Below, in pieces: positions 1 through 12,178 of a DNA stretch of 21,942 nucleotides (position 1 is its first letter; the number at the start of each line of letters is the position of its first letter). The notes beneath the pieces were generated by a model that had not been told where the DNA came from, made no database searches, and worked only from the letters and a program-made list of their open reading frames with translations. The stretch lies in IMG/VR virus record IMGVR_UViG_2565956720_000013; one strand, written 5' to 3'. Source of the DNA: a virus (Duplodnaviria; Heunggongvirae; Uroviricota; Caudoviricetes). Position numbers and translations under genes: made by a program.

Positions 1-996
1 TTATGGACGCATTATGGACATTCCTGACACCGGGTTAAGAGTCACAGCATCTTGTAAGAAATCCGGTGCAAAGTGTGCGTAGGTCATAGTTTGCTGAATG
101 TTAGAATGACCCAGGATGCGCTGCAATGTGATTATGTTACCTCCATTCATTATAAAATGTGTGGCAAATGTATGCCTCAAAACATGTACTGCTTGTCCGT
201 CAGGTAAATCGGGTTTTACTTCCCTGAGAGCGTTACGCACTTTGTAGTAACTGGCATTAAAAAGCCTGCCTGAATTTTTGGTCTTGATCCGTTTAATCAG
301 GTCCTGCGAAACGGGAATTGTCCTGCGTTTTCCGTTTTTAGTTTTCATAAACGTAACCATCTGGTTAATGATGTGTTCAGCTTTTAAATTAGACACTTCA
401 CTCCAGCGTCCACCAGTAGAAAGGCAGACCAGAGTTGCATTTAATTCATCACCATCAAGCATGGATAACAGCCGCGTAATCTCTTCACTGGACAAAAAAG
501 CCATTTCCGTAACAGCTTCACGTAACCGTTTAATCTCACGGAACGGGTTGTGGGAGTGGTATTCACCGGCGTCAATTAACTTGGTGAACATCCCGCTCAT
601 TATTGCCAGATGTCGATTTACGCTGGCTGGTTTTAGACCATCGTTCATCATTACAACGCGATAATCAGTTATCGTTTTCTTTGTTAGCTGGTCAGCTCTG
701 GACACTCCCATTTCTGCAAATTTGGCGATTATTGTCGTTAAACGCCCCCGTTCAATATCTCCACGCTCATGTGATTTTCCGTGATATATCCACCATCTAC
801 CTAACAACTCTGTAAGAGTTCGGCGGTCGGCTGGTTTCTCCAACCACTCTTTGTTGTGGTAGTTAACCAATACATGACGTTCGAATGCCTGAGCTTCACC
901 TTTAGTTTTAAATTTCCGCCTGATACGTTTTCCATCTGCACCCTGCGGTCTGACGTCCACTTCATAACGACCATCATCGAGCTTTTTAATAGACAT
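1..996 (-). CDS. int: Tyrosine-type site-specific integrase, P2 Int-like; complete ORF with stop at 1-3, so attL should lie just beyond the left window edge
   Basis: 331 aa ORF; C-terminal catalytic region with LRHTFATH and GHSNIQQTMTYAHF (R/H box and catalytic Tyr of tyrosine recombinases); located downstream of and co-oriented with the repressor, as in the P2 C-int arrangement. Confidence 0.9.
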   Translation of the reverse strand: MSIKKLDDGRYEVDVRPQGADGKRIRRKFKTKGEAQAFERHVLVNYHNKEWLEKPADRRTLTELLGRWWIYHGKSHERGDIERGRLTTIIAKFAEMGVSRADQLTKKTITDYRVVMMNDGLKPASVNRHLAIMSGMFTKLIDAGEYHSHNPFREIKRLREAVTEMAFLSSEEITRLLSMLDGDELNATLVCLSTGGRWSEVSNLKAEHIINQMVTFMKTKNGKRRTIPVSQDLIKRIKTKNSGRLFNASYYKVRNALREVKPDLPDGQAVHVLRHTFATHFIMNGGNIITLQRILGHSNIQQTMTYAHFAPDFLQDAVTLNPVSGMSIMRP

Positions 997-1089
997 AAAG
1001 CCCTCCGATGACGCTGTTTACTTCTACTACTTGAAAATTAATGCAATTTTCTTTCGTACATTTACTACACACATATGCTGAATAAATCG

Positions 1090-1389
1090 TCAGCCAGTCT
1101 TCTGGTCTGAGTGGTGCAAGGTTGTTGAGTCTTGCCCAATGTGTGCGAGAGCCGGGGCTATTTGTCCAGCTGCTGGATCTGTTTCATCAAACATGAACCA
1201 GTCACGATACTTGCGAAAGCGTGGATGCTTAAACAGCTTCATACCTGCTTCCATAGGCATTTTTGATTTTCCTGATTCATATCCATGATATGTGTAGTAA
1301 TTAATTCCAATTAATTCAGCAAGTTCCTTAGTTTTAAGGCGTTCGGATTCACGGATGAGCTTTAGTTTCTCACTTTGTTCACTTGACAT
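1090..1389 (-). CDS. C: Immunity repressor, P2 C-like
   Basis: 99 aa from the ATG at 1389 (the ORF-track start at 1407 is a TTG); GGAG Shine-Dalgarno upstream; helix-turn-helix-like segment ELAELIGINYYTYHGYESGKS; C-terminal QIAPALAHIGQ resembles P2 C as recalled from memory; divergent from the cox-like gene. Confidence 0.75.
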   Translation of the reverse strand: MSSEQSEKLKLIRESERLKTKELAELIGINYYTYHGYESGKSKMPMEAGMKLFKHPRFRKYRDWFMFDETDPAAGQIAPALAHIGQDSTTLHHSDQKTG

Positions 1390-1482
1390 AATTTTGCTAA
1401 TCTCCAATTATATTGCTACTTGGCAATTTGTGATTCACTCAAAAAGGCTCTAGATGGCTCCAGTTGGTGAATCGCAAATCTT
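1390..1482. promoter_or_regulatory. Immunity switch region: divergent promoter/operator interval between the repressor and the cox-like gene
   Basis: 93-bp interval between divergent regulator genes; contains a 13-bp imperfect inverted repeat, atttgtgattcac at 1426-1438 and gtgaatcgcaaat at 1467-1479 (12 of 13 positions complementary); a TATAAT hexamer reads on the minus strand around 1407-1412. Confidence 0.5.
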
Positions 1483-3346: not shown

Positions 3347-3618
3347 GTATTCGTATCGAAATTGGCGAACGTTATGTCGTTACCAGTGACAGCTTTCAGT
3401 TTATTCTCCACGAGAAAAAGAGAGCGGAAAGCGGTAAAAACGCCGGTCAGGAATGGCTGGCGGTGGTTGGTTATTACCCGAAATTAAGCCAGCTCGTTTC
3501 CGGCCTGATGCATCACGATATTCTGACCGGAAGCGCAAAGTCTTTTGCTGATTTAAACGCGCAGGTTGAGCAACTCAGCAAGCGTTGTTCAGAGGCTTTT
3601 GGCTCATATGGCCGTTAA
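3343..3618 (+). CDS. Hypothetical early-operon protein (91 aa)
   Basis: ATGA overlap with the upstream stop; its 3' end overlaps the start of gpA. Confidence 0.45.
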   Translation: MSIRIEIGERYVVTSDSFQFILHEKKRAESGKNAGQEWLAVVGYYPKLSQLVSGLMHHDILTGSAKSFADLNAQVEQLSKRCSEAFGSYGR

Positions 3619-5920
3619 AGCCTCCGGGCGTTTTGTCCCTCCGTCAGCATTTGCCGCAGACACCGGTAAGACGTTTGCCGGTGCTTATGCATGGAACGCG
3701 CCACGCGAGGCTGTCGGGCGCGAAAGACCCCTTACACGTGATGAGATGCGTCAGGTGCAAGGTGTTTTATCCACGATTAACCGCCTGCCTTACTTTTTGC
3801 GCTCGCTGTTTACTTCACGCTATGACTACATCCGGCGCAATAAAAGCCCGGTACACGGGTTTTATTTCCTCACATCCACTTTTCAGCGTCGTTTATGGCC
3901 GCGCATTGAGCGCGTGAATCAGCGCCATGAAATGAACACCGACGCGTCGTTGCTGTTTCTGGCAGAGCGTGACCAGTATGCGCGCCTGCCGGGGATGAAT
4001 GACAAGGAGCTGAAAAAGTTTGCCGCCCGTATCTCATCACAGCTTTTCATGATGTATGAGGAACTCTGCGATGCCTGGGTGGATGCGCATGGCGAGAAAG
4101 AATCGCTGTTTACGGATGATGCGCAGGCTCACCTCTATGGTCATGTTGCTGGCGCTGCACGTGCTTTCAATATTTCCCCGCTTTACTGGAAAAAATACCG
4201 TAAAGGACAGATGACCACGAGGCAGGCATATTCTGCAATTGCCCGTCTGTTTAACGATGAGTGGTGGACTCATCAGCTTAAAGGCCAGCGTATGCGCTGG
4301 CATGAAGCGTTACTGATAGCTGTCGGGGAGGTCAATAAAGACCGTTCTCCTTATGCCAGTAAACACGCCATTCGTGATGTGCGTGCGCGCCGCCAGGCAA
4401 ATCTGGAATTTCTTAAATCGTGTGACCTTGAAAACAGGGAAACCGGCGAGCGCATCGACCTTATCAGTAAGGTGATGGGCAGTATTTCTAATCCTGAAAT
4501 TCGCCGGATGGAGCTGATGAACACCATTGCCGGTATTGAGCGTTACGCCGCTGCAGAGGGTGATGTGGGGATGTTTATCACGCTGACCGCGCCGTCAAAG
4601 TATCACCCGACACGTCAGGTCAGAAAAGGCGAAAGTAAAACCGTTCAGCTTAATCACGGCTGGAACGATGAGGCATTTAATCCAAAGGATGCGCAGCGTT
4701 ATCTCTGCCGCATCTGGAGCCTGATGCGCACGGCATTCAAGGATAATGATTTACAGGTCTACGGTTTGCGTGTCGTCGAGCCACACCACGACGGAACGCC
4801 GCACTGGCATATGATGCTTTTTTGTAATCCACGCCAGCGTAACCAGATTATTGAAATCATGCGTCGCTACGCGCTCAAAGAGGATGGCGACGAAAGAGGA
4901 GCTGCGCGAAACCGTTTTCAGGCAAAACACCTTAACCGGGGCGGTGCTGCGGGGTATATCGCAAAATACATCTCAAAAAACATCGATGGCTATGCACTGG
5001 ATGGTCAGCTCGATAATGATACCGGCAGGCCGCTGAAAGATACTGCTGCGGCTGTTACCGCATGGGCGTCAACGTGGCGAATTCCGCAATTTAAAACGAT
5101 TGGCCTGCCGACAATGGGGGCTTACCGTGAACTACGCAAATTGCCTCGCGGCGTCAGTATTGCTGATGAGTTTGACGAACGCGTCGAGGCTGCTCGCGCT
5201 GCCGCAGACAGTGGTGATTTTGCGTTGTATATCAGCGCGCAGGGTGGGGCAAATGTCCCGCGCGATTGTCAGACTGTCAGGGTTGCCCGTAGCCCGTCGG
5301 ATGACGTTAACGAGTACGAGGAAGAAGTCGAGAGAGTGGTCGGCATTTACGCGCCGCATCTCGGCGCGCGTCATATTCATATCACCAGAACGACGGACTG
5401 GCGCATTGTGCCGAAAGTTCCGGTCGTTGAGCCTTTGACTTTAAAAAGCGGCATCGCCGCGCCTCGGAGTCCTGTCAATAACTGTGGAAAGCTCACCGGT
5501 GGTGATACTTCGTTACCGGCTCCCACACCTTCTGAGCACGCCGCAGCAGTGCTAAATCTGGTTGATGACGGTGTTATCGAATGGAATGACCCGGAGGTCG
5601 TGAGGACGCTCAGGGGTGCATTAAAACACGGCCTGAAAACACCAAATCGTCAGCAAAGAAACGGAAGCCCGTTAAAACCACATGAAATTGCGCCATCGGC
5701 CAGACTGACTCGGTCGGAACGAATGCAAATTACCCGTATCCGCGTTGACCTTGCTCAGAACGGTATCAGGCCACAGCGATGGGAGCTTGAGGCGCTGGCT
5801 CGGGGAGCGAGAGTAAATTATGGTGATATGTCATTCAAATTTCCAGTTGATGATCGATTTTATGATGATGTTAACTCTTTGAATTTATGGAGTATTGAGT
5901 CTCATGTGAACTTCACATAA
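3608..5920 (+). CDS. A: Replication initiation endonuclease gpA (rolling-circle HUH nickase)
   Basis: 770 aa from ATG 3608 (ORF-track start 3566 is a TTG); HUH-type motif PHWHMMLF; tandem active-site tyrosines in GYIAKYISKN as in phiX174-type Rep proteins; syntenic position of P2 A. Confidence 0.9.
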   Translation: MAVKASGRFVPPSAFAADTGKTFAGAYAWNAPREAVGRERPLTRDEMRQVQGVLSTINRLPYFLRSLFTSRYDYIRRNKSPVHGFYFLTSTFQRRLWPRIERVNQRHEMNTDASLLFLAERDQYARLPGMNDKELKKFAARISSQLFMMYEELCDAWVDAHGEKESLFTDDAQAHLYGHVAGAARAFNISPLYWKKYRKGQMTTRQAYSAIARLFNDEWWTHQLKGQRMRWHEALLIAVGEVNKDRSPYASKHAIRDVRARRQANLEFLKSCDLENRETGERIDLISKVMGSISNPEIRRMELMNTIAGIERYAAAEGDVGMFITLTAPSKYHPTRQVRKGESKTVQLNHGWNDEAFNPKDAQRYLCRIWSLMRTAFKDNDLQVYGLRVVEPHHDGTPHWHMMLFCNPRQRNQIIEIMRRYALKEDGDERGAARNRFQAKHLNRGGAAGYIAKYISKNIDGYALDGQLDNDTGRPLKDTAAAVTAWASTWRIPQFKTIGLPTMGAYRELRKLPRGVSIADEFDERVEAARAAADSGDFALYISAQGGANVPRDCQTVRVARSPSDDVNEYEEEVERVVGIYAPHLGARHIHITRTTDWRIVPKVPVVEPLTLKSGIAAPRSPVNNCGKLTGGDTSLPAPTPSEHAAAVLNLVDDGVIEWNDPEVVRTLRGALKHGLKTPNRQQRNGSPLKPHEIAPSARLTRSERMQITRIRVDLAQNGIRPQRWELEALARGARVNYGDMSFKFPVDDRFYDDVNSLNLWSIESHVNFT

Positions 5921-5974
5921 TATGGGGCCGTTGTAGGTGTTTGAACAATCACACTTCAATTCAAAGGGATAGTT

Positions 5975-7222
5975 ATGGTTATTTATCAAGGTGGTAAGAT
6001 AATATCTGAAGATGATTTTTATTCTCATCTTTATTCGTTATGTCAGTTGGATAATGTAGGCGTTCTTTTAGGAGCGGGAGCATCGGTCGGCTGTGGTGGC
6101 CAAACTATGAAGCAGGTATGGCAGTCTTTTAAATATGCACATCCTGAGCTATTGAATTTGTTGCTAGAAAAATACTTACTGGTTGACAATACTGAATCTG
6201 AACAAGACATAGTTAATGTTGAACTTCTGATTGATGAAGTAACTAAATTCTTGTCTGTAGCGAAAACAAGGCGTAATGAAAAAGAACAAAATGAAATTAG
6301 TTTAATATTAAGTGCTTTATATAAACAAGTAACAAGGGCTGCATTGTTAACTGGAGAAGAGTTTGGTTGTAAAAATCAAGGGAAGAAAAACCAGTTTAGG
6401 TCTCATAAAGAATTAATTTCAAAGTTGATTTCAAATAGGCAGCCGGGACAATCGGCACCGGCACTTTTTACCACCAATTATGATTTGGCATTAGAGTGGG
6501 CAGCCGAAGATTTAGGAATTCAGTTATTTAATGGTTTTTCAGGATTGCATACAAGACAATTTTATCCTCAAAATTTTGATTTGGCATTTAGAAATGTCAA
6601 TGCAAAAGGGGAGGCTAGATTTGGTCATTATCACGCTTATCTATATAAGTTGCATGGCTCTCTTACATGGTATCAGGATGATTTTTTAATAGTTAATGAG
6701 GTAAGTGCATCTCAGGCATATGATAATTACATTAAAAATATAATTAATGGTGATGATTTTTACTATGGTCAACATTTGATTTATCCGGGGGCTAATAAAT
6801 ATAGCCATACAATTGGTTTTGTTTACGGTGAAATGTTTAGGCGTTTTGGTGAATTTTTGTCAAAACCTCAAACCGCTTTATTTATTAATGGGTTTGGGTT
6901 TGGTGATTATCATATAAACAGAATTGTTTTTGGTGCTTTGTTAAATCCGTCATTTCATGTTGTTATTTATTACCCTGATCTGGAGAATGCTTTAGATAAA
7001 GTTAGAAGAGGTGTTGCTTCTGAAGGTGAAAAGGCAATTGATGCTTTAAAAAATATGCAATTCAATCAAGTGACTATCGTGGGTGGAGGTCCAGATGCTT
7101 ACTTTGATAGTTTTGTGAAACATCTTCCTTATCCGGTGTTGTTCCCAAGAGAAAATACTGTTGATGATTTGGTTGAAGCTATTTCTAAATTGTCTAAAGG
7201 GGAAGGGAATGTCGCATTTTAA
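5975..7222 (+). CDS. SIR2-like (SIR2_2 / DHS-like NAD-binding fold) protein, predicted NADase effector of a SIR2-HerA-type defence module
   Basis: 415 aa; N-terminal GAGASVGCG glycine-rich motif; TTNYD (sirtuin-type catalytic Asn) about 130 aa downstream; KLHGSL (catalytic His) further on; AT-rich coding sequence unlike the flanking phage genes. Confidence 0.75.
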   Translation: MVIYQGGKIISEDDFYSHLYSLCQLDNVGVLLGAGASVGCGGQTMKQVWQSFKYAHPELLNLLLEKYLLVDNTESEQDIVNVELLIDEVTKFLSVAKTRRNEKEQNEISLILSALYKQVTRAALLTGEEFGCKNQGKKNQFRSHKELISKLISNRQPGQSAPALFTTNYDLALEWAAEDLGIQLFNGFSGLHTRQFYPQNFDLAFRNVNAKGEARFGHYHAYLYKLHGSLTWYQDDFLIVNEVSASQAYDNYIKNIINGDDFYYGQHLIYPGANKYSHTIGFVYGEMFRRFGEFLSKPQTALFINGFGFGDYHINRIVFGALLNPSFHVVIYYPDLENALDKVRRGVASEGEKAIDALKNMQFNQVTIVGGGPDAYFDSFVKHLPYPVLFPRENTVDDLVEAISKLSKGEGNVAF

Positions 7223-9029
7223 ACTATCTGAATTATCTGCTATTGGGTATGTTGTTGGTCTGGAGGGCGAAAAAATAAGGATAAATCTTCATGAAGGATT
7301 GCAAGGTAGGCTAGCCTCTCATAGGGATGGTGTCAGTTCTGTTACTCAGCCTGGAGATTTGATCGGTTTTGATGCCGGAAATATTCTGGTTGTGGCTCGA
7401 GTTACAGATATGGCATTTGTCGAGGCTGATAAAGCACATCAGGCAAAAATAGGTACATCAGATATAGCAGATATCCCGTTAAGGCAAATAATAGCCTATG
7501 CAATAGGTTTTATTAGACGAGATATAGATGGATGTGTGTTTGTTTCGGAAGACTGGAGATTACCTGCTCTGGGAGCATCCGCTGTCCCATTAACATCTGA
7601 CTTTTTAAATGTCGTATATAGTATTGATAAAAATGATCTGGATAAAGCAATTGAGTTGGGAATAGATTCGAGGACTAAATCAGTTAAAATTTTAGCTAGC
7701 ATTGATAAATTACTAACTAGGCATATGGCTGTTTTGGGCAGTACTGGATATGGTAAATCTAATTTTAATGCTTTACTTACACGCCGCATTTCAGAACAGT
7801 ACCCTAATGCAAGAATAGTAATTTTTGATATTAATGGCGAGTATTCTCAGGCTTTTGAAGGTGTTGCTAATGTTAAACATACTATTTTAGGTGAGTTACC
7901 AAAAGGAGAGATTCCAAAACCACCTCTACAGAAAGGAGATATATTTTCTGAGAATAAACATTACTATTATAGAAAAATACCTTATCAAGCATTGGGATTT
8001 GCTGGGTTGATAAAATTACTACGCCCTAGTGATAAGACACAATTACCTGCATTAAGAAATGCGCTTAATGCTATAAATAGTGTTCATTTTTCCGATGATT
8101 CTTTCTTTCTTAAGGATAATGGGGGAAGGGTATTTGATATTTTTGATGATTGTAGAGATGAAGGGCAAGAAGTTTTATCTGCATGGTTGAGTTTCTTAAG
8201 AAGTGGGCATCTGTGTAAGGCAAATAAATGGCCGCCGTTTAAAAGTATTGCTAACTTAGTTGCGGAGTTTGGCTGCGTGGCGGCGGATTCGCGAAAAACT
8301 GGATCTAGTAAACGAGATGCTTTTAGCTATGGCAATGTTCTGCCATTGATTAAGATAATTCAACAGTTATCAGAGGATTCTAGATTCAAGTATATTGTTG
8401 ATTTAAATGGAGGTGGTGAATTATTAAGTGATGGCAAGCATTGGGAATTAGCTATGAGACAGGAGGTTGATTATTTTTTTGGTAAAGAAAAGGGAGAGGA
8501 GAATGACTGGAATATTCATATTGTTAATTTTAAGCATCTTTCACAAGATCATGCTCCAATGCTGTTAAGTGCATTATTAGAAATGTTTGCTGAAGTTCTC
8601 TTCCTTAGAGGTCAAGATAAAGCTTTTCCAACAGTGTTACTTCTTGAAGAAGCGCATCATTATTTAAGAGATCCTTATTCTGAAGTTGATGCTCAAATTA
8701 AAGCTTATGAAAGACTTGCAAAGGAAGGCCGTAAATTTAAATGTTCACTTATTGTGAGCACACAACGACCATCAGAGCTTTCATCAACAGTATTAGCAAT
8801 GTGTGCAAATTGGTTTTCGTTGCGTCTGACAAATGAGCGTGATTTGCAGACTTTACGGTATGCGATGGAAAGTGGAAATGAGTTAATGATTCGGCAGATT
8901 TCTGGGCTTCCCAGAGGAGATGCAATAGCGTTTGGTGCTGCTTTTAATATACCCGTAAGAATTTCAATTCACCCTGCTGTACCCGGTCCGAGATCGTCTG
9001 ACGCAAGTTATTCTCAAGAATGGCGATAA
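7209..9029 (+). CDS. HerA-like (FtsK/HerA superfamily) P-loop ATPase, partner of the SIR2-like protein
   Basis: 606 aa from ATG 7209 (AAGGGGAAGGGA SD; ORF-track start 7161 is upstream in frame); Walker A GSTGYGKSN; Walker B VLLLEEAHHY; downstream LIVSTQRPSELS motif typical of HerA/FtsK-type ATPases; overlaps the upstream gene by 14 nt. Confidence 0.8.
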   Translation: MSHFKLSELSAIGYVVGLEGEKIRINLHEGLQGRLASHRDGVSSVTQPGDLIGFDAGNILVVARVTDMAFVEADKAHQAKIGTSDIADIPLRQIIAYAIGFIRRDIDGCVFVSEDWRLPALGASAVPLTSDFLNVVYSIDKNDLDKAIELGIDSRTKSVKILASIDKLLTRHMAVLGSTGYGKSNFNALLTRRISEQYPNARIVIFDINGEYSQAFEGVANVKHTILGELPKGEIPKPPLQKGDIFSENKHYYYRKIPYQALGFAGLIKLLRPSDKTQLPALRNALNAINSVHFSDDSFFLKDNGGRVFDIFDDCRDEGQEVLSAWLSFLRSGHLCKANKWPPFKSIANLVAEFGCVAADSRKTGSSKRDAFSYGNVLPLIKIIQQLSEDSRFKYIVDLNGGGELLSDGKHWELAMRQEVDYFFGKEKGEENDWNIHIVNFKHLSQDHAPMLLSALLEMFAEVLFLRGQDKAFPTVLLLEEAHHYLRDPYSEVDAQIKAYERLAKEGRKFKCSLIVSTQRPSELSSTVLAMCANWFSLRLTNERDLQTLRYAMESGNELMIRQISGLPRGDAIAFGAAFNIPVRISIHPAVPGPRSSDASYSQEWR

Positions 9030-9183
9030 TCTTGTGGGAGAATGTAATAGGATAACGATAAATGCATCTATCTGCATTAATTCGAATTAGGTTGAGAGGA
9101 GTTCAAAAACAAATTTAGACCGGCATTAGAGTGGTTTAGATAGACATATGCAACTGCATTAAAACCGCCCCGTGAAGCGGGCG

Positions 9184-9202
9184 GGCGAGGCGGGGAAAGC
9201 AC
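9184..9202. other. cos cohesive-end site (P2/P4-type 19-nt sequence GGCGAGGCGGGGAAAGCAC)
   Basis: Exact match to the P2 cos cohesive-end sequence as I recall it; lies between the accessory locus and portal gene Q, as in P2; preceded by the hairpin ccgccc-N8-gggcgg. Confidence 0.7.
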
Positions 9203-9344
9203 TGCGCGCTGGCGGTGGTGCTGATTTTATTTTTTCAGCGTCTGAGCGCGTCGTGATGGCGTTTAGATTGTGTACCGGGGCGTTGGTGTGTCTGCGGGGT
9301 GTTTTGTGCGGTGGTGAGCGTGTGAGGGCGTGATGACGGGGTGT

Positions 9345-9366
9345 AAAAAAGCCGCCCGCAGGCGGC
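9345..9366 (-). terminator. Rho-independent terminator for the leftward P-Q transcript
   Basis: Minus-strand GC stem GCCGCC-tgcg-GGCGGC followed by a run of six T, immediately downstream of the portal stop codon (9372-9374). Confidence 0.55.
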
Positions 9367-9371
9367 GATGT

Positions 9372-10406
9372 TCAGCCGTTGTCAGTGTCCAGTGAGTAGT
9401 TTTTAAAGCGGATGACCTCCTGACCGAGCCAGCCGTTTATCTCGCGGATCCTGTCCTGTAACGGGATAAGCTCATTGCGGACAAAGACCTTTGCCACTTT
9501 CTCAATATCACCCAGCGACCCGACGTTCTCCGGCTTGCCGCCCATCAACTGAAAGGGGATGCGGTGCGCGTCCAGCAGGTCAGCGGCGCTGGCTTTTTTG
9601 ATATTAAAAAAATCGTCCTTCGTTGCCACTTCACTGAGCGGGATAATTTTAATGCCGTCGGCTTTTCCCTGCGGGGCATAGAGAAACAGATTTTTAAAGT
9701 TGTTGCGGCCTTTCGACTTGACCATGTTTTCGCGAAGCATTTCGATATCGTTGCGATCCTGCACGGCATCAGTGACGTACATGATGTATCCGGCATGTGC
9801 GCCGTTTTCGTAATACTTGCGGCGGAACAGCGTGGCTGACTCATTCAGCCAGGCAGAGTTAAGGGCGCTGAGATATTCCGGCATGCCGTACAGCTCCTGA
9901 TTAATATCCGGCTCCAGCAGATGAAACACGGAGCCGGGCGCGAAAGGTGTCGGCTCGTTGAAGGACGGCACCCACCAGTAAACATCCTCCTCCACGCCAC
10001 GGCGGGTATATTTTGCCGGTGAGGTTTCCAGTCTGATGACCTTACCGGTGGTGCTGTAACGCTTTTCCAGAAACGCATTACCGAACACCAGAAAATCCAG
10101 CACAAAGCGGCTGAAATCCTGTTGTGAAAGCCACGGATGCGGGATAAATGTCGAGGCCAGAATATTACGTTTGACGTAAATCGGTGAGCTGTGATGCACG
10201 GCAGCACGCAGGCTTTTTGCCAGACCGGTAAAGCTGACCGGTGGCTCATACCATCTGCCGTTACTGATGCACTCGACGTAATCCAGAATGTCACGGCGGT
10301 CGAGTACCGGCACCGGCTCACCAAAGGTGAATGCCTCCATTTTCGGGGCGCTGGCGGTCATTTTTTTTGCCTCAGGTTGCGGTGTTTTCCCTTTTTTCTT
10401 GCTCAT
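9372..10406 (-). CDS. Q: Portal protein gpQ
   Basis: 344 aa, the length I recall for P2 Q; start overlaps the terminase stop (ATGA overlap); leftward, next to cos. Confidence 0.9.
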   Translation of the reverse strand: MSKKKGKTPQPEAKKMTASAPKMEAFTFGEPVPVLDRRDILDYVECISNGRWYEPPVSFTGLAKSLRAAVHHSSPIYVKRNILASTFIPHPWLSQQDFSRFVLDFLVFGNAFLEKRYSTTGKVIRLETSPAKYTRRGVEEDVYWWVPSFNEPTPFAPGSVFHLLEPDINQELYGMPEYLSALNSAWLNESATLFRRKYYENGAHAGYIMYVTDAVQDRNDIEMLRENMVKSKGRNNFKNLFLYAPQGKADGIKIIPLSEVATKDDFFNIKKASAADLLDAHRIPFQLMGGKPENVGSLGDIEKVAKVFVRNELIPLQDRIREINGWLGQEVIRFKNYSLDTDNG

Positions 10407-12178
10407 CAGTAAAACTCCAGAATGGTGGATGTCAGCGGAGTGCTGATACCGGCGGTGAGTGGCTCATTTAACAGGGCGTGCATGGTCGCCCAGGCGAGGT
10501 CGGCGTGGCTGGCTTCCTCGCTGCGGCTGGCCTCATAGGTGGCACTGCGTCCGCTGCTGGTCATGGTCTTGCGGATAGCCATAAACGAGCTGGTGATGTC
10601 GGTGGCGCTGACGTCGTATTCCAGACAGCCACGGCGGATGACGTCTTTTGCCTTGAGCACCATTGCGGTTTTCATTTCCGGCGTGTAGCGGATGTCGCGC
10701 GCGGCGGGATAGAACGAGCGCACGAGCTGGAACACGCCGACACCGAGGCCGGTGGCATCAATACCGATGTATTCGACGTTGTATTTTTCGGTGAGTTTGC
10801 GGATGGATTCCGCCTGGGTGGCAAAGTCCATGCCTTTCCACTGGTGACGCTCAAGTATTCTGAATTTGCCACCGGCCACCACCGGCGGTGCCAGCACCAC
10901 GCATCCGGCACTGTCGCCACGGTGTGACGGGTCGTAACCAATCCAGACCGGGCGGGAGCCGAACGGATTCGCGGCAAACGGCGCATAGTCTTCCCATTCT
11001 TCCAGCGTGTCGACCATGCAGCGTTGCAGCTCCTCGAACGGGAATACCGACGCCTTGTCGTCAACAAATTCACACATGAACAGGTTTTTAAAATCGTCGG
11101 CGCTGTTTTCGCGTTTAAGCTGCTCAATGTCGAACAGCGTGCAGCCACCTTTCAGGGCGTCCTCAATGGTGACAATCTGCCGCCACTGGCCGTCCGCACA
11201 GAGAAGCCCACCGGCAAGGGCGTTATGACTGACGTCGATTTCCACGCGTTCGGCGGCGCTGGCGCGTCCCCGGTTGAACAGTTCACCCGACCAGAACGGA
11301 TAGGCGTCGTGCGCCAGCGTGGACGGGGTGGAGAAATAGGTCGAGCGCAGGTGACTCTGTGAGGCCATACCTGATGCCACCTTACGCAGTACCTGAAAAT
11401 TCGGGATCCAGAAAATCTCATCGACGTACAGGTCGCCGTTATGGCTCTGCGCGGTGTTGGAGTTGGTGCCGAGAAAAATCAGTTTTGCGCCGTTATTGCC
11501 CAGGACAATCGGGTCACCGGTCAGGTCAACGTCAACCAGCCGGGCAAAGGCGATGATGTATTCGCGGAACACATACGCCTGCGTTTTACTGGCCGACAGA
11601 AAAATCTGGTTATGACCGGTTTTCAGGGCGCGCAGCAGCGCCTCGCGGGAAAAATAAAACGTCGCGCCAATCTGGCGGGATTTCAGGATATCGCGGATGC
11701 GGTGCTCAAGCCCGGCGCGATACCAGTGCAACTGATAGTCGAAAGACTGCTCAAAGAAAATCTGCTCCAGCTTTTCGATGGCCTCGTCACTGAAAAAATT
11801 CTTTTTCGGTTTGCGACGCCCGCCTTTGTTGCGGTTAGCGACGTTCGGATTAAGGTCTGCCTCGTTGCCGGTCTGACTGTAGCGGTTGACCCGCGCCAGC
11901 CGTTCAATCTGGCGTCCCAGCAGGTCAATTTCCTTGAAGTCACCGCCGGTTTTCTGCGGTTTGATGATGAGCTGGGTCAGCCGCGCTTCCAGACTCATTT
12001 CGACACGGCTGATGGGGGCAACGCTGTCCCAGCCGTCGCGCTGTTTCCAGCTCTGCACCGTCGGGCGTTTCATCTGCAACATGGCGGCAATCTGCGGCAC
12101 GGAAAACCCCTGCCAGTACAGCAGCGCCGCCTGACGACGCGGGTCGTGTAAAAGAGTGGTGTCTGTGGTGATGGTCAT
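10406..12178 (-). CDS. P: Terminase large subunit (ATPase) gpP
   Basis: 590 aa from ATG 12178 (MTITTDTTLLHD; ORF-track start 12208 is a TTG), the length I recall for P2 P; GAGGT SD; upstream of and coupled to the portal gene. Confidence 0.9.
   Translation of the reverse strand: MTITTDTTLLHDPRRQAALLYWQGFSVPQIAAMLQMKRPTVQSWKQRDGWDSVAPISRVEMSLEARLTQLIIKPQKTGGDFKEIDLLGRQIERLARVNRYSQTGNEADLNPNVANRNKGGRRKPKKNFFSDEAIEKLEQIFFEQSFDYQLHWYRAGLEHRIRDILKSRQIGATFYFSREALLRALKTGHNQIFLSASKTQAYVFREYIIAFARLVDVDLTGDPIVLGNNGAKLIFLGTNSNTAQSHNGDLYVDEIFWIPNFQVLRKVASGMASQSHLRSTYFSTPSTLAHDAYPFWSGELFNRGRASAAERVEIDVSHNALAGGLLCADGQWRQIVTIEDALKGGCTLFDIEQLKRENSADDFKNLFMCEFVDDKASVFPFEELQRCMVDTLEEWEDYAPFAANPFGSRPVWIGYDPSHRGDSAGCVVLAPPVVAGGKFRILERHQWKGMDFATQAESIRKLTEKYNVEYIGIDATGLGVGVFQLVRSFYPAARDIRYTPEMKTAMVLKAKDVIRRGCLEYDVSATDITSSFMAIRKTMTSSGRSATYEASRSEEASHADLAWATMHALLNEPLTAGISTPLTSTILEFY

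What the first reader, a model, noticed from the sequence alone, without database searches (positions are those of the whole stretch)
5921..9183. AT-rich compositional island bounded by the gpA stop and cos: a variable cargo slot
Seen in sequence: 5975-9029 is visibly AT-rich with A/T-biased third codon positions (for example the runs near 6280-6420 and 7600-7760), whereas the flanking gpA, portal and terminase genes are GC-balanced to GC-rich. The boundaries fall at the end of gpA (5920) and about 155 bp before cos. Established knowledge: in P2 this interval holds orf91, tin and old, and it is a recognised hotspot for exchangeable anti-phage genes. Inference: the module was acquired horizontally from a lower-GC donor by cassette replacement.
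Basis: partly seen in the sequence, partly recalled or inferred. Interest (0 to 1): 0.55.

Follow-up and report, generated by a model that had tools for sequence, protein, structure and literature searches.

The report
SIR2-HerA defence cassette in P2 hotspot
The AT-rich stretch is real and is the well-known swappable cargo slot next to the packaging site of P2-like prophages, here filled with a variant of the already characterised SIR2-HerA ("Nezha") anti-phage system, so it is an ordinary, already catalogued feature.

Summary
Window 5823-9147 has GC 0.36, against 0.48 on the left and 0.57 on the right. The two genes inside have GC3 0.24, against 0.53-0.72 in gpA, Q, P, O, N and M. Their codon usage is uncorrelated with host usage.

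The cargo is a SIR2-like NADase (5975-7222) and a HerA ATPase (7209-9029). They are 81% and about 77% identical to the solved E. coli SIR2-HerA/Nezha complex (PDB 8J4U), and the catalytic residues are intact.

The slot reading is supported. P2, STYP1, pro147 and a cdt-carrying P2 have 96-98% identical flanks and unrelated cargo. Only 24 of 5,426 complete E. coli genomes carry this cassette. Synonymous divergence between SIR2-HerA alleles is saturated (at least 1.6), while gpA and gpQ of the same prophages differ by 0.13-0.15.

Two refinements:
- The left breakpoint lies inside gpA (about 5822-5857), so cassette DNA encodes the gpA tail.
- A phased TGCAT array (9063-9077), conserved beside cos, limits free cargo to about 9060.

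A lower-GC donor cannot be shown, because every cargo I measured in this slot is AT-rich.

Rousset et al. 2022 already list these very proteins as cargo of this hotspot. Verdict: already known, low interest.

The parts
3608..5920 (+). gpA replication endonuclease (770 aa). This is the left homology arm of the slot. The core up to about 5822 is 96% identical to P2 gpA.
   Evidence: The BLAST alignment to P2 AF063097 covers 3574-5822 at 96.4%. RefSeq annotates the equivalent gene in L007 and L008. The P2 ori nick maps to about 5466 (plus the offset).
5823..5920 (+). Chimeric AT-rich 3' end of gpA (last 33 codons), encoded by cassette-side DNA. This is the left recombination junction zone, about 5806-5857.
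   Evidence: GC is 0.31. In sampled rows of the 1,681 matching E. coli genomes, matches mostly end at window 5820-5825, and some end at 5853. The alignment shows residual similarity (FxFPVxD) and then complete divergence.
5858..5892 (+). Conserved 35-bp block (TTTTATGATGATGTTAACTCTTTGAATTTATGG) upstream of SIR2, present in all four SIR2-HerA alleles. It may be a regulatory element or a remnant of an alternative gpA tail.
   Evidence: The alignment of alleles A, B, Scandinavium and Nezha shows a run of invariant columns, although the coding dS between them is saturated.
5975..7222 (+). SIR2-like NADase (415 aa), the effector of the SIR2-HerA/Nezha system.
   Evidence: PADLOC SIR2 PDLC02186 matches at 1.8e-188. 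Pfam SIR2_2 matches. PDB 8J4U_A matches at 2.4e-230 over the full length, 81.0% identity. N168, D170 and H227 are present. NCBIfam SIR2_antiphage scores 500 bits.
7209..9029 (+). HerA-type (FtsK/HerA) hexameric ATPase/helicase (606 aa). It overlaps the SIR2 stop by 14 bp.
   Evidence: PADLOC HerA PDLC02185 matches at 2.7e-272. Pfam DUF87 matches. PDB 8J4U_M matches with E=0 over the full length. Identity to the Nezha-allele HerA of L010 is 76.8%. Walker A is GSTGYGKS at 177-184 and Walker B is LLLEEAH at 477-483.
9063..9077 (+). Two TGCAT pentamers 10 bp apart, at -121 and -111 from cos. They belong to a phased TGCAT array conserved in P2-like and P4-like elements whatever the cargo. This is probably the outer part of the packaging signal, and so the real right limit of free cargo.
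   Evidence: TGCAT occurs at -111/-110 in 48 of 59 independent left flanks, at -101/-100 in 48 of 59, and at -29 in 53 of 59. The background rate is 0.0016 per position.
9146..9183 (+). Conserved cos-proximal flank where DNA homology with all P2-like (and P4-like) elements resumes. It includes a GC hairpin at 9165-9184.
   Evidence: In sampled rows, matches mostly start at 9147-9150, with some at 9155 or 9132. The hairpin was listed by the terminator scan.
9184..9202 (+). cos, the 19-nt cohesive end GGCGAGGCGGGGAAAGCAC, identical to P2 cosL/cosR.
   Evidence: There is one exact match, with 0 expected by chance. P2 annotates cosL at 1-19 and cosR at 33575-33593.
9372..10406 (-). gpQ portal gene, the right homology arm. 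The interval from cos to Q (9203-9371) carries no extra cargo here.
   Evidence: The match to P2 positions 1-1600 is 96.9% identical. It is annotated as portal in all related loci.

Best explanation
The island is the cos-proximal accessory slot of a P2-like (Peduovirus) prophage, between the replication gene A and cos/gpQ. In this phage it holds a two-gene SIR2-HerA ('Nezha'-type) abortive-infection defence operon.

**The slot (shown by comparison).** The interval is dispensable. It is bracketed by highly conserved essential sequences: gpA with its internal ori on the left, and the packaging signal plus gpQ on the right. These serve as homology arms. Recombination between related P2-like genomes then swaps whole cargo blocks.

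- The left crossover for this cassette lies within the last 65-115 bp of gpA. The cassette therefore supplies gpA's final 22-33 codons.
- Free cargo ends on the right about 30 bp after the HerA stop. There a phased TGCAT array of the cos region begins.

**The cargo (inferred from 77-81% identity to the solved and assayed E. coli system).** By analogy with the E. coli system, SIR2 would form a dodecamer that binds a HerA hexamer. On phage infection the complex would deplete NAD+ through SIR2 N168/D170/H227. Its ATPase, helicase and nuclease activities would also be unleashed. The infected cell arrests, and competing phages fail to propagate in the lysogen.

**Not shown here.** Expression in the lysogen, which phages trigger this allele, and its protection spectrum.
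For: **Composition.**

**Identity of the genes**
- PADLOC: SIR2 1.8e-188 and HerA 2.7e-272.
- Pfam: SIR2_2 and DUF87.
- Full-length matches to PDB 8J4U/8SU9 chains, at 81.0% for SIR2 and 76.8% for HerA against the same allele in L010.
- PMC13434337 names 8J4U as Nezha. It defines its clusters at 70% identity.
- The catalytic and Walker residues are present. PMC11559045 gives N168 and H227 as the conserved NADase residues.

**The slot**
- P2 has orf91/tin/old here. STYP1, P2-O157:H43 and pro147 have other cargo between the same flanks.
- Junction positions recur across the sampled rows of 1,681 and 2,430 matching E. coli genomes.
- The hotspot is described in PMC9122126.
- Its Table S5B row 14 reads 'SIR2 | DUF87, 188 occurrences, SIR2 + HerA (Gao et al. 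2020)'.
- Its Table S5A lists WP_094336912 + WP_023352402. These are the proteins of L007, 99.8% and 100% identical to the window's.

**Exchange independent of the backbone**
- dS between alleles A and B is 1.6-1.7. It is 0.13 for the gpA core and 0.15 for gpQ of the same two prophages.
- Four alleles, 77-86% identical in protein, all sit in the P2 slot.

**No other insertion mechanism.** There are no flanking direct or inverted repeats and no transposase or integrase in the island.

**Selection.** The genes are under purifying selection, with dN/dS 0.04-0.08.
Against: - There is no direct evidence that the operon is expressed in the lysogen.
  - It is co-oriented with gpA.
  - The consensus scan found no sigma-70-like site on the + strand upstream of SIR2, and no terminator between gpA and SIR2.
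  - It might therefore be transcribed only by read-through from the early operon.
- This allele is untested. HerA differs from Nezha at about 23% of residues, with divergence concentrated at 211-255 and 286-345. Its trigger and spectrum could differ.
- HerA scores 701 bits, below the NCBIfam equivalog cut-off of 800.
- Homologous recombination as the swapping mechanism is inferred from junction patterns. It has not been observed.
- No isolated phage in INPHARED carries a Nezha-type HerA. Carriage is therefore known only from prophages.
Confidence: 0.9

Rival explanations
1. The AT-richness records recent import from one identifiable low-GC donor lineage, such as Vibrionaceae or Shewanella.
For: The next relatives outside Enterobacteriaceae are in Vibrio, Photobacterium, Shewanella, Marinomonas and Paraferrimonas, at 55-61% amino-acid identity. 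There the system's GC (0.385-0.41) matches its surroundings (0.37-0.43).
Against: - Those relatives are too distant (55-61%) to be donors.
- The enterobacterial copies (GC 0.36-0.37) are more AT-rich than the marine ones.
- Every other cargo I measured in this slot is equally AT-rich: tin/old 0.354, Fic 0.362, cdt 0.41, pro147 0.384.
- Four anciently diverged alleles already reside in P2-like slots. The immediate source is therefore most likely another P2-like phage.
Confidence: 0.15
2. The low GC is a maintained property of the shared accessory and defence gene pool of P2/P4 hotspots. Possible causes are mutational bias in rarely expressed genes, or selection for xenogeneic silencing or regulation. 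On this view it is not a fingerprint of any donor.
For: - All cargos measured in the slot have GC 0.35-0.41, whatever their function.
- Alleles with saturated dS keep GC3 of 0.24-0.29 in hosts with GC around 50%. They have not drifted toward host composition despite long residence in enterobacterial phages.
Against: Composition alone cannot separate this rival from repeated import.
Confidence: 0.5
3. The island is an independent mobile element (IS, transposon, integron cassette or satellite) that inserted next to cos.
For: The compositional borders are sharp.
Against: - The island has only two ORFs, both defence proteins, and no transposase or integrase.
- No direct or inverted repeats flank it. 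The only border-related repeat is the TGCAT motif of the cos region.
- Unrelated cargos share similar junctions in about 1,700-2,400 genomes.
Confidence: 0.03
4. The two genes are conserved core P2 genes, or decayed remnants, and the composition is incidental.
For: None beyond their position in a phage genome.
Against: - They are present in only 24 of 5,426 complete E. coli genomes, against about 2,400 with the flanks.
- P2 itself lacks them.
- Both ORFs are intact at full length, with catalytic residues present and dN/dS 0.04-0.08.
Confidence: 0.01

Closest known systems
E. coli SIR2-HerA / Nezha defence system (Gao et al. 2020; Tang et al. 2023; Shen et al. 2023; PDB 8J4U, 8SU9 and others)
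   Same: - It has the same two-gene architecture and the same lengths (415 aa; 606 versus 610 aa).
- The alignment is full-length, at 81% (SIR2) and about 77% (HerA) identity.
- The catalytic N168/D170/H227 and the Walker A and B motifs are conserved.
- The Nezha allele itself (L010, 99.5% identical to 8J4U SIR2) also sits between a gpA remnant and gpQ of a P2-like element.
   Different: - It is a distinct allele. dS against Nezha is saturated.
- Divergence is concentrated in SIR2 46-90 and 331-360, and in HerA 211-255 and 286-345.
- It is untested experimentally.
- HerA scores below the NCBIfam equivalog cut-off.
P2-like phage gpA-gpQ (cos-proximal) defence hotspot (Rousset et al. 2022, PMC9122126; P2 old/tin locus)
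   Same: - It occupies the same position between gpA and cos/gpQ.
- The cargo size (about 3.2 kb) equals the reported mean.
- SIR2+HerA is row 14 of the paper's system table (188 of 18,150 loci).
- The L007 proteins (HerA identical to the window's, SIR2 one residue different) appear in its locus table.
   Different: - P2's old/tin are transcribed leftward from their own promoter near cos. This operon runs rightward, co-oriented with gpA.
- The left junction here cuts further into gpA than in P2, STYP1 or pro147.
Vibrio cholerae classical-biotype Nezha (PMC11559045)
   Same: It is a homologous SIR2 (55%) and HerA (59%) pair with the same active-site residues. It has been shown to deplete NAD+ and to block ICP1, ICP2 and ICP3.
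   Different: It lies in a 25-kb chromosomal defence island between tonB and trmA, not in a P2-like prophage. It is much more divergent.
Sir2-HerA types I-III of E. coli (PMC13434337)
   Same: They have the same domain pair and the same abortive-infection outcome.
   Different: Those types share only 13-22% identity with Nezha. The window's system is 77-81% identical to Nezha, so it belongs to the Nezha cluster and not to types I-III.

Membership tests
SIR2-HerA (Nezha) anti-phage system | A SIR2-like NADase with the conserved Asn and His (plus Asp) active-site residues | tested here: met
   N168, D170 and H227 lie in the TTNYD and KLHGS motifs. PMC11559045 gives the residue identities. PADLOC SIR2 matches at 1.8e-188.
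SIR2-HerA (Nezha) anti-phage system | A HerA/FtsK-type P-loop ATPase with Walker A and Walker B motifs | tested here: met
   GSTGYGKS lies at 177-184 and LLLEEAH at 477-483. Pfam DUF87 matches at 5.8e-22. PADLOC HerA matches at 2.7e-272.
SIR2-HerA (Nezha) anti-phage system | sir2 and herA adjacent and co-oriented as one operon | tested here: met
   SIR2 is 5975-7222 and HerA is 7209-9029 on the same strand, with a 14-bp overlap.
SIR2-HerA (Nezha) anti-phage system | Falls in the Nezha sequence cluster (CD-HIT 70% identity, PMC13434337) rather than in types I-III | tested here: met
   SIR2 is 81.0% identical to 8J4U_A. HerA is 76.8% identical to the Nezha-allele HerA of L010. The cluster definition is given. 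I did not run CD-HIT itself.
SIR2-HerA (Nezha) anti-phage system | A SIR2 dodecamer plus HerA hexamer complex, infection-triggered NAD+ depletion, and protection against phages | not testable with these tools
   Inferred only, from full-length 77-81% identity to the solved and assayed complex.
SIR2-HerA (Nezha) anti-phage system | Passes the NCBIfam equivalog cut-offs (NF042942 SIR2_antiphage, NF042943 HerA_antiphage) | tested here: inconclusive
   SIR2 scores 500.0 bits against a cut-off of 500. HerA scores 701.2 bits against a cut-off of 800. These are annotation thresholds, not a biological definition.
P2-like phage cos-proximal (gpA-gpQ) cargo hotspot | Located between the replication gene A and cos/gpQ of a P2-like genome | tested here: met
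   gpA is 3608-5920, cos is 9184-9202 and gpQ is 9372-10406. All are 96-97% identical to P2.
P2-like phage cos-proximal (gpA-gpQ) cargo hotspot | Unrelated gene content in close relatives that share conserved flanks | tested here: met
   The relatives carry tin/old, Fic/VbhT, cdtABC, and the pro147 genes between the same flanks. Junction positions recur in sampled rows of about 1,700-2,400 genomes.
P2-like phage cos-proximal (gpA-gpQ) cargo hotspot | This cargo is listed in the published catalogue of the hotspot | tested here: met
   Table S5B row 14 and the Table S5A entries WP_094336912 + WP_023352402 and WP_000237502 list it.
Transposon / integrative island | Own recombinase or transposase, and terminal repeats or target-site duplication | tested here: not met
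   There is no such ORF and there are no flanking repeats.

The most novel reading that the evidence does not exclude
The slot is bounded by functional elements rather than by gene ends, and the cassette is more than two genes.

- **Left side.** The cassette brings a conserved 35-bp block (5858-5892) and rewrites the last 22-33 codons of the essential gene A. Cargo exchange therefore creates gpA C-terminal variants. Allele B even truncates gpA to 706 aa.
- **Right side.** The slot ends at a phased TGCAT array at -124/-121, -111 and -101 from cos. P2-like phages and P4-like satellites share this array. It would be an undescribed terminase-recognition (cosB-like) element.
- **Specificity.** The four deeply diverged alleles, with variation concentrated in HerA 211-345, would represent distinct trigger or anti-defence specificities within 'Nezha'.
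Probability: 0.25. Interest if true: 0.4.

Novelty: already known. Interest (0 to 1): 0.15.

Why it matters
As found, it matters little. It is a textbook case of a prophage-borne defence cassette in a catalogued hotspot, and it mainly serves as a correct annotation. RefSeq names these genes only 'SIR2 family protein' and 'ATP-binding protein'.

Three smaller points have some value:
- This allele and its three siblings form a natural series of diverged Nezha variants in isogenic phage backbones. They could be used to map what determines trigger specificity.
- The junction analysis shows that cargo exchange remodels the C-terminus of the essential replication protein gpA.
- The phased TGCAT array beside cos, if not already described, would define the outer limit of the P2/P4 packaging signal. 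It would also explain why the hotspot stops where it does.

Tried and rejected
- **Promoter for the operon.** The sigma-70 consensus scan found no + strand site upstream of SIR2. By eye I found a weak candidate: TTGAGT at 5895-5900, 17 bp, then TAATAT at 5918-5923. It scores 8 of 12, below the scan's threshold. Its -35 is not conserved in the other alleles. I make no claim for it.
- **Terminator after HerA.** None was predicted on the + strand before cos. The hairpin at 9165-9184 has its T-run on the minus strand.
- **Non-coding RNA.** There is no Rfam family anywhere in the window at gathering threshold.
- **Flanking repeats.** None was meaningful.
- **Isolated phages with this cargo.** None in INPHARED, either by megablast or by tblastn with HerA.
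- **Positive selection in the variable HerA patches.** dN/dS peaks at 0.44, so none was shown. dS is saturated in many windows, so the test is weak.
- **Mechanism papers.** The Shen et al. 2023 paper could not be read (PMC11418745 is not held). The Tang et al. 2023 reference carries no PMC id, and I did not look it up. Mechanism statements rest on later open papers that summarise them.
- **The TGCAT array in the literature.** No paper in the library holds TGCAT together with 'cos site' and 'terminase'.
- **A failed side comparison.** A gpQ dS comparison with L010 was run out of frame and I discarded it.


Full report
**1. Observation**

The window is a P2-like (Peduovirus) prophage segment running from the integrase gene into the late genes. 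Its closest complete-genome match is E. coli ET210, at 98.6% over 1-21867.

The sliding-window profile shows GC of 0.32-0.42 between about 5800 and 9000. GC is 0.51-0.57 just before this stretch and 0.50-0.62 after it.

Using the homology breakpoints found below, the island 5823-9147 has GC 0.361. The left flank has 0.478 and the right flank 0.567. No other window of the same length outside the island falls below 0.441.

Codon statistics agree:
- GC3 is 0.240 and 0.239 for the two island genes, against 0.54-0.72 for gpA, Q, P, O, N and M. The chi-square is 472.
- RSCU correlation with flanking E. coli chromosomal genes is -0.13 and -0.19 for the island genes, against 0.67-0.84 for the phage core.

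**2. What the cargo is**

The island holds exactly two credible ORFs on the + strand. They are 5975-7222 (415 aa) and 7209-9029 (606 aa), and they overlap by 14 bp. The listed TTG start at 7161 is an over-extension.

- The first ORF is a SIR2-like protein. Pfam SIR2_2 matches at 1.2e-9 and PADLOC SIR2 at 1.8e-188.
- The second is a HerA-type ATPase. Pfam DUF87 matches at 5.8e-22 and PADLOC HerA at 2.7e-272.
- Both align end to end with the chains of the solved E. coli SIR2-HerA complex (8J4U, 8SU9 and others).
- SIR2 is 81.0% identical to that structure. HerA is 76.8% identical to the same allele found in locus L010.
- PMC13434337 names 8J4U as 'Nezha' and defines its clusters at 70% identity. 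Its types I-III are only 13-22% identical to Nezha. This system therefore belongs to the Nezha cluster.
- The NADase residues N168, D170 and H227 are present, as are Walker A (K183) and Walker B (E480/E481) of HerA. PMC11559045 identifies N168 and H227.

[quoted passage not shown] On infection it depletes NAD+ and aborts the infection.

**3. The slot and its borders**

P2 carries orf91, tin and old in this interval. Three other phages carry different cargo:
- STYP1 carries a Fic/VbhT gene.
- A P2 from O157:H43 carries cdtABC.
- pro147 carries other genes.

All four have gpA and cos/Q flanks 96-98% identical to the window.

*Left border.* In sampled rows of 1,681 matching E. coli genomes, matches to the left flank mostly end at window 5820-5825. 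A minority end at 5853.
- Base-level alignment shows that the window diverges from the other P2-like phages from about 5806.
- A weak FxFPVxD similarity persists to about 5857.
- After that the sequences are unrelated.
- So the left junction lies inside gpA (3608-5920). The last 22-33 codons of gpA have GC 0.31 and are cassette-side DNA.
- A 35-bp block at 5858-5892 is conserved upstream of SIR2 in all four SIR2-HerA alleles, even though their coding dS is saturated. In allele B the same block is non-coding, because gpA there is truncated to 706 aa.

*Right border.* Homology resumes at 9146-9155, which is 29-38 bp before the 19-nt cos at 9184-9202. The apparently unique spacer in between is not free sequence, as section 7 shows.

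**4. Is it a cassette replacement?**

Yes, in the sense of exchange between related phage backbones.
- Only 24 of 5,426 complete E. coli genomes carry the island. Fifteen carry this allele at 96.6-99.7%. Nine carry a second allele at 78% nucleotide identity with a different left junction.
- At least four alleles are 77-86% identical in protein: the window's, L006, the Nezha/8J4U allele in L010, and one in Scandinavium lactucae. All sit between gpA and cos/gpQ of P2-like elements.
- Synonymous divergence between the window allele and the L006 allele is 1.6-1.7, which is saturated. The gpA core and gpQ of the same two prophages differ by dS 0.13 and 0.15. Cargo history is therefore decoupled from backbone history.
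- There is no recombinase or transposase in the island and there are no flanking repeats. Homologous recombination in the conserved arms is the most economical mechanism. This is an inference.

**5. The 'lower-GC donor'**

It is compatible with the data, but I could not show it.
- Outside Enterobacteriaceae, the nearest relatives are 55-61% identical. They occur in Vibrio, Photobacterium, Shewanella, Marinomonas and Paraferrimonas, including the V. cholerae Nezha.
- Those copies are not next to gpA or gpQ. Their GC (0.385-0.41) is similar to their surroundings.
- They are too distant to be donors, and the E. coli copies are even more AT-rich (0.36-0.37).
- Every other cargo I measured in this slot has GC 0.35-0.41.
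- AT-richness is thus a general property of the slot's gene pool.

**6. Comparison with what is known, and novelty**

The gpA-gpQ hotspot of P2-like phages is described in Rousset et al. 2022.
- Their table of systems lists 'SIR2 | DUF87 - SIR2 + HerA (Gao et al. 2020)' as the 14th most frequent cargo, with 188 loci.
- Their locus table contains WP_094336912 + WP_023352402. These are the proteins of L007. Its HerA is 100% identical to the window's and its SIR2 differs by one residue.

The finding is therefore already known, both as a phenomenon and as this particular cargo.

What remains untested is this allele's activity, its trigger and its expression. The operon is co-oriented with gpA. The consensus scan found no + strand promoter upstream of SIR2 and no terminator between gpA and SIR2.

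**7. Things seen in passing**

*A phased TGCAT array beside cos.*
- I compared 59 independent left-of-cos flanks. They came from P2-like phages and P4-like satellites fetched with the cos sequence.
- TGCAT pentamers occur at fixed positions:
  - at -111/-110 in 48 of 59 flanks;
  - at -101/-100 in 48 of 59;
  - at -126 to -120 in 31 of 59;
  - at -29 in 53 of 59.
- The background rate is 0.0016 per position.
- The window has them at 9063, 9073 and 9155.
- This looks like the outer part of the packaging signal. It sets the true right limit of free cargo at about 9060, only about 30 bp after the HerA stop.
- I could not find it described in the searchable library. It may be in Ziermann & Calendar 1990, which I could not read.

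*A second cargo site between cos and gpQ.* pro147 and the Scandinavium prophage carry extra genes between cos and gpQ. That site is empty in the window.

*Another atypical module.* The integrase and repressor region (1-1400) also has atypical codon usage.

*Generic RefSeq names.* NCBIfam scores the SIR2 exactly at its cut-off and the HerA below its cut-off. This explains the generic RefSeq product names.

**8. Verdict**

The refinements are: the left border lies inside gpA, the right border is set by cos-associated repeats, and the donor cannot be identified. The feature is an ordinary, already catalogued SIR2-HerA (Nezha-cluster) defence cassette in the P2 hotspot. Interest is low.

Noticed in passing
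window 9063-9067, 9073-9077 and 9155-9159; same positions relative to cos in L001-L010 and L020 onwards: There is a phased TGCAT pentamer array at about -124/-121, -111, -101 and -29 from the first base of cos. It is conserved in 48 of 59 independent P2-like and P4-like left flanks whose surrounding sequence is otherwise unrelated (background 0.0016 per position). It is probably the outer part of the packaging signal and the true right limit of the cargo slot. I found no description of it in the searchable literature.
   Followed up: partly
window 5823-5920 (gpA 3' end); L006 5700-5800: Cargo exchange rewrites the C-terminus of the essential replication protein gpA. Here the last 22-33 codons are AT-rich cassette DNA. 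In the allele-B prophage gpA is truncated to 706 aa, against 761 in P2 and 770 here.
   Followed up: partly
window 5858-5892: A 35-bp block (TTTTATGATGATGTTAACTCTTTGAATTTATGG) is conserved upstream of SIR2 in all four alleles, although their coding dS is saturated. Its function is unknown. It could be a regulatory site or a conserved alternative gpA tail (DDxNSLNxW).
   Followed up: partly
L003 (pro147) 3751-6065; L009 (Scandinavium) 9274-11392; window 9203-9371: There is a second cargo site between cos and the end of gpQ. pro147 carries a reverse transcriptase (the RefSeq copy of the record names a retron Ec48 family effector beside it) and an AlkB-annotated ORF there. The Scandinavium prophage carries a 401-aa ORF with a repeat-rich N-terminal region, which I did not scan against any family library. 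The site is empty in the window and in P2.
   Followed up: partly
window 7839-7973 and 8064-8243 (HerA residues 211-255 and 286-345); window 6110-6244 (SIR2 residues 46-90): Divergence among the four Nezha-cluster alleles is concentrated in these patches. Invariant columns fall to 23-43% there, against 90-100% around the catalytic motifs. dN/dS rises to 0.44 but stays below 1.
   Followed up: partly
window 1-1407: The integrase and repressor region has atypical composition and codon usage (GC3 0.38-0.42; RSCU correlation with host 0.14-0.15). It matches a different set of prophages (L006-type, integrated next to pflA) than the rest of the backbone. This is another mosaic module.
   Followed up: no
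L010 (JAEYGZ010000011.1): A contig labelled 'MAG: Bacillota bacterium' carries an E. coli-type P2-like segment (gpQ 98.8% and gpP 100% identical to the window), with the exact Nezha/8J4U allele. The bin assignment is probably wrong.
   Followed up: no
window 5975-9029: NCBIfam equivalog models score this SIR2 at exactly the cut-off (500.0 against 500) and this HerA below it (701 against 800). That is why RefSeq calls the same genes only 'SIR2 family protein' and 'ATP-binding protein'.
   Followed up: yes
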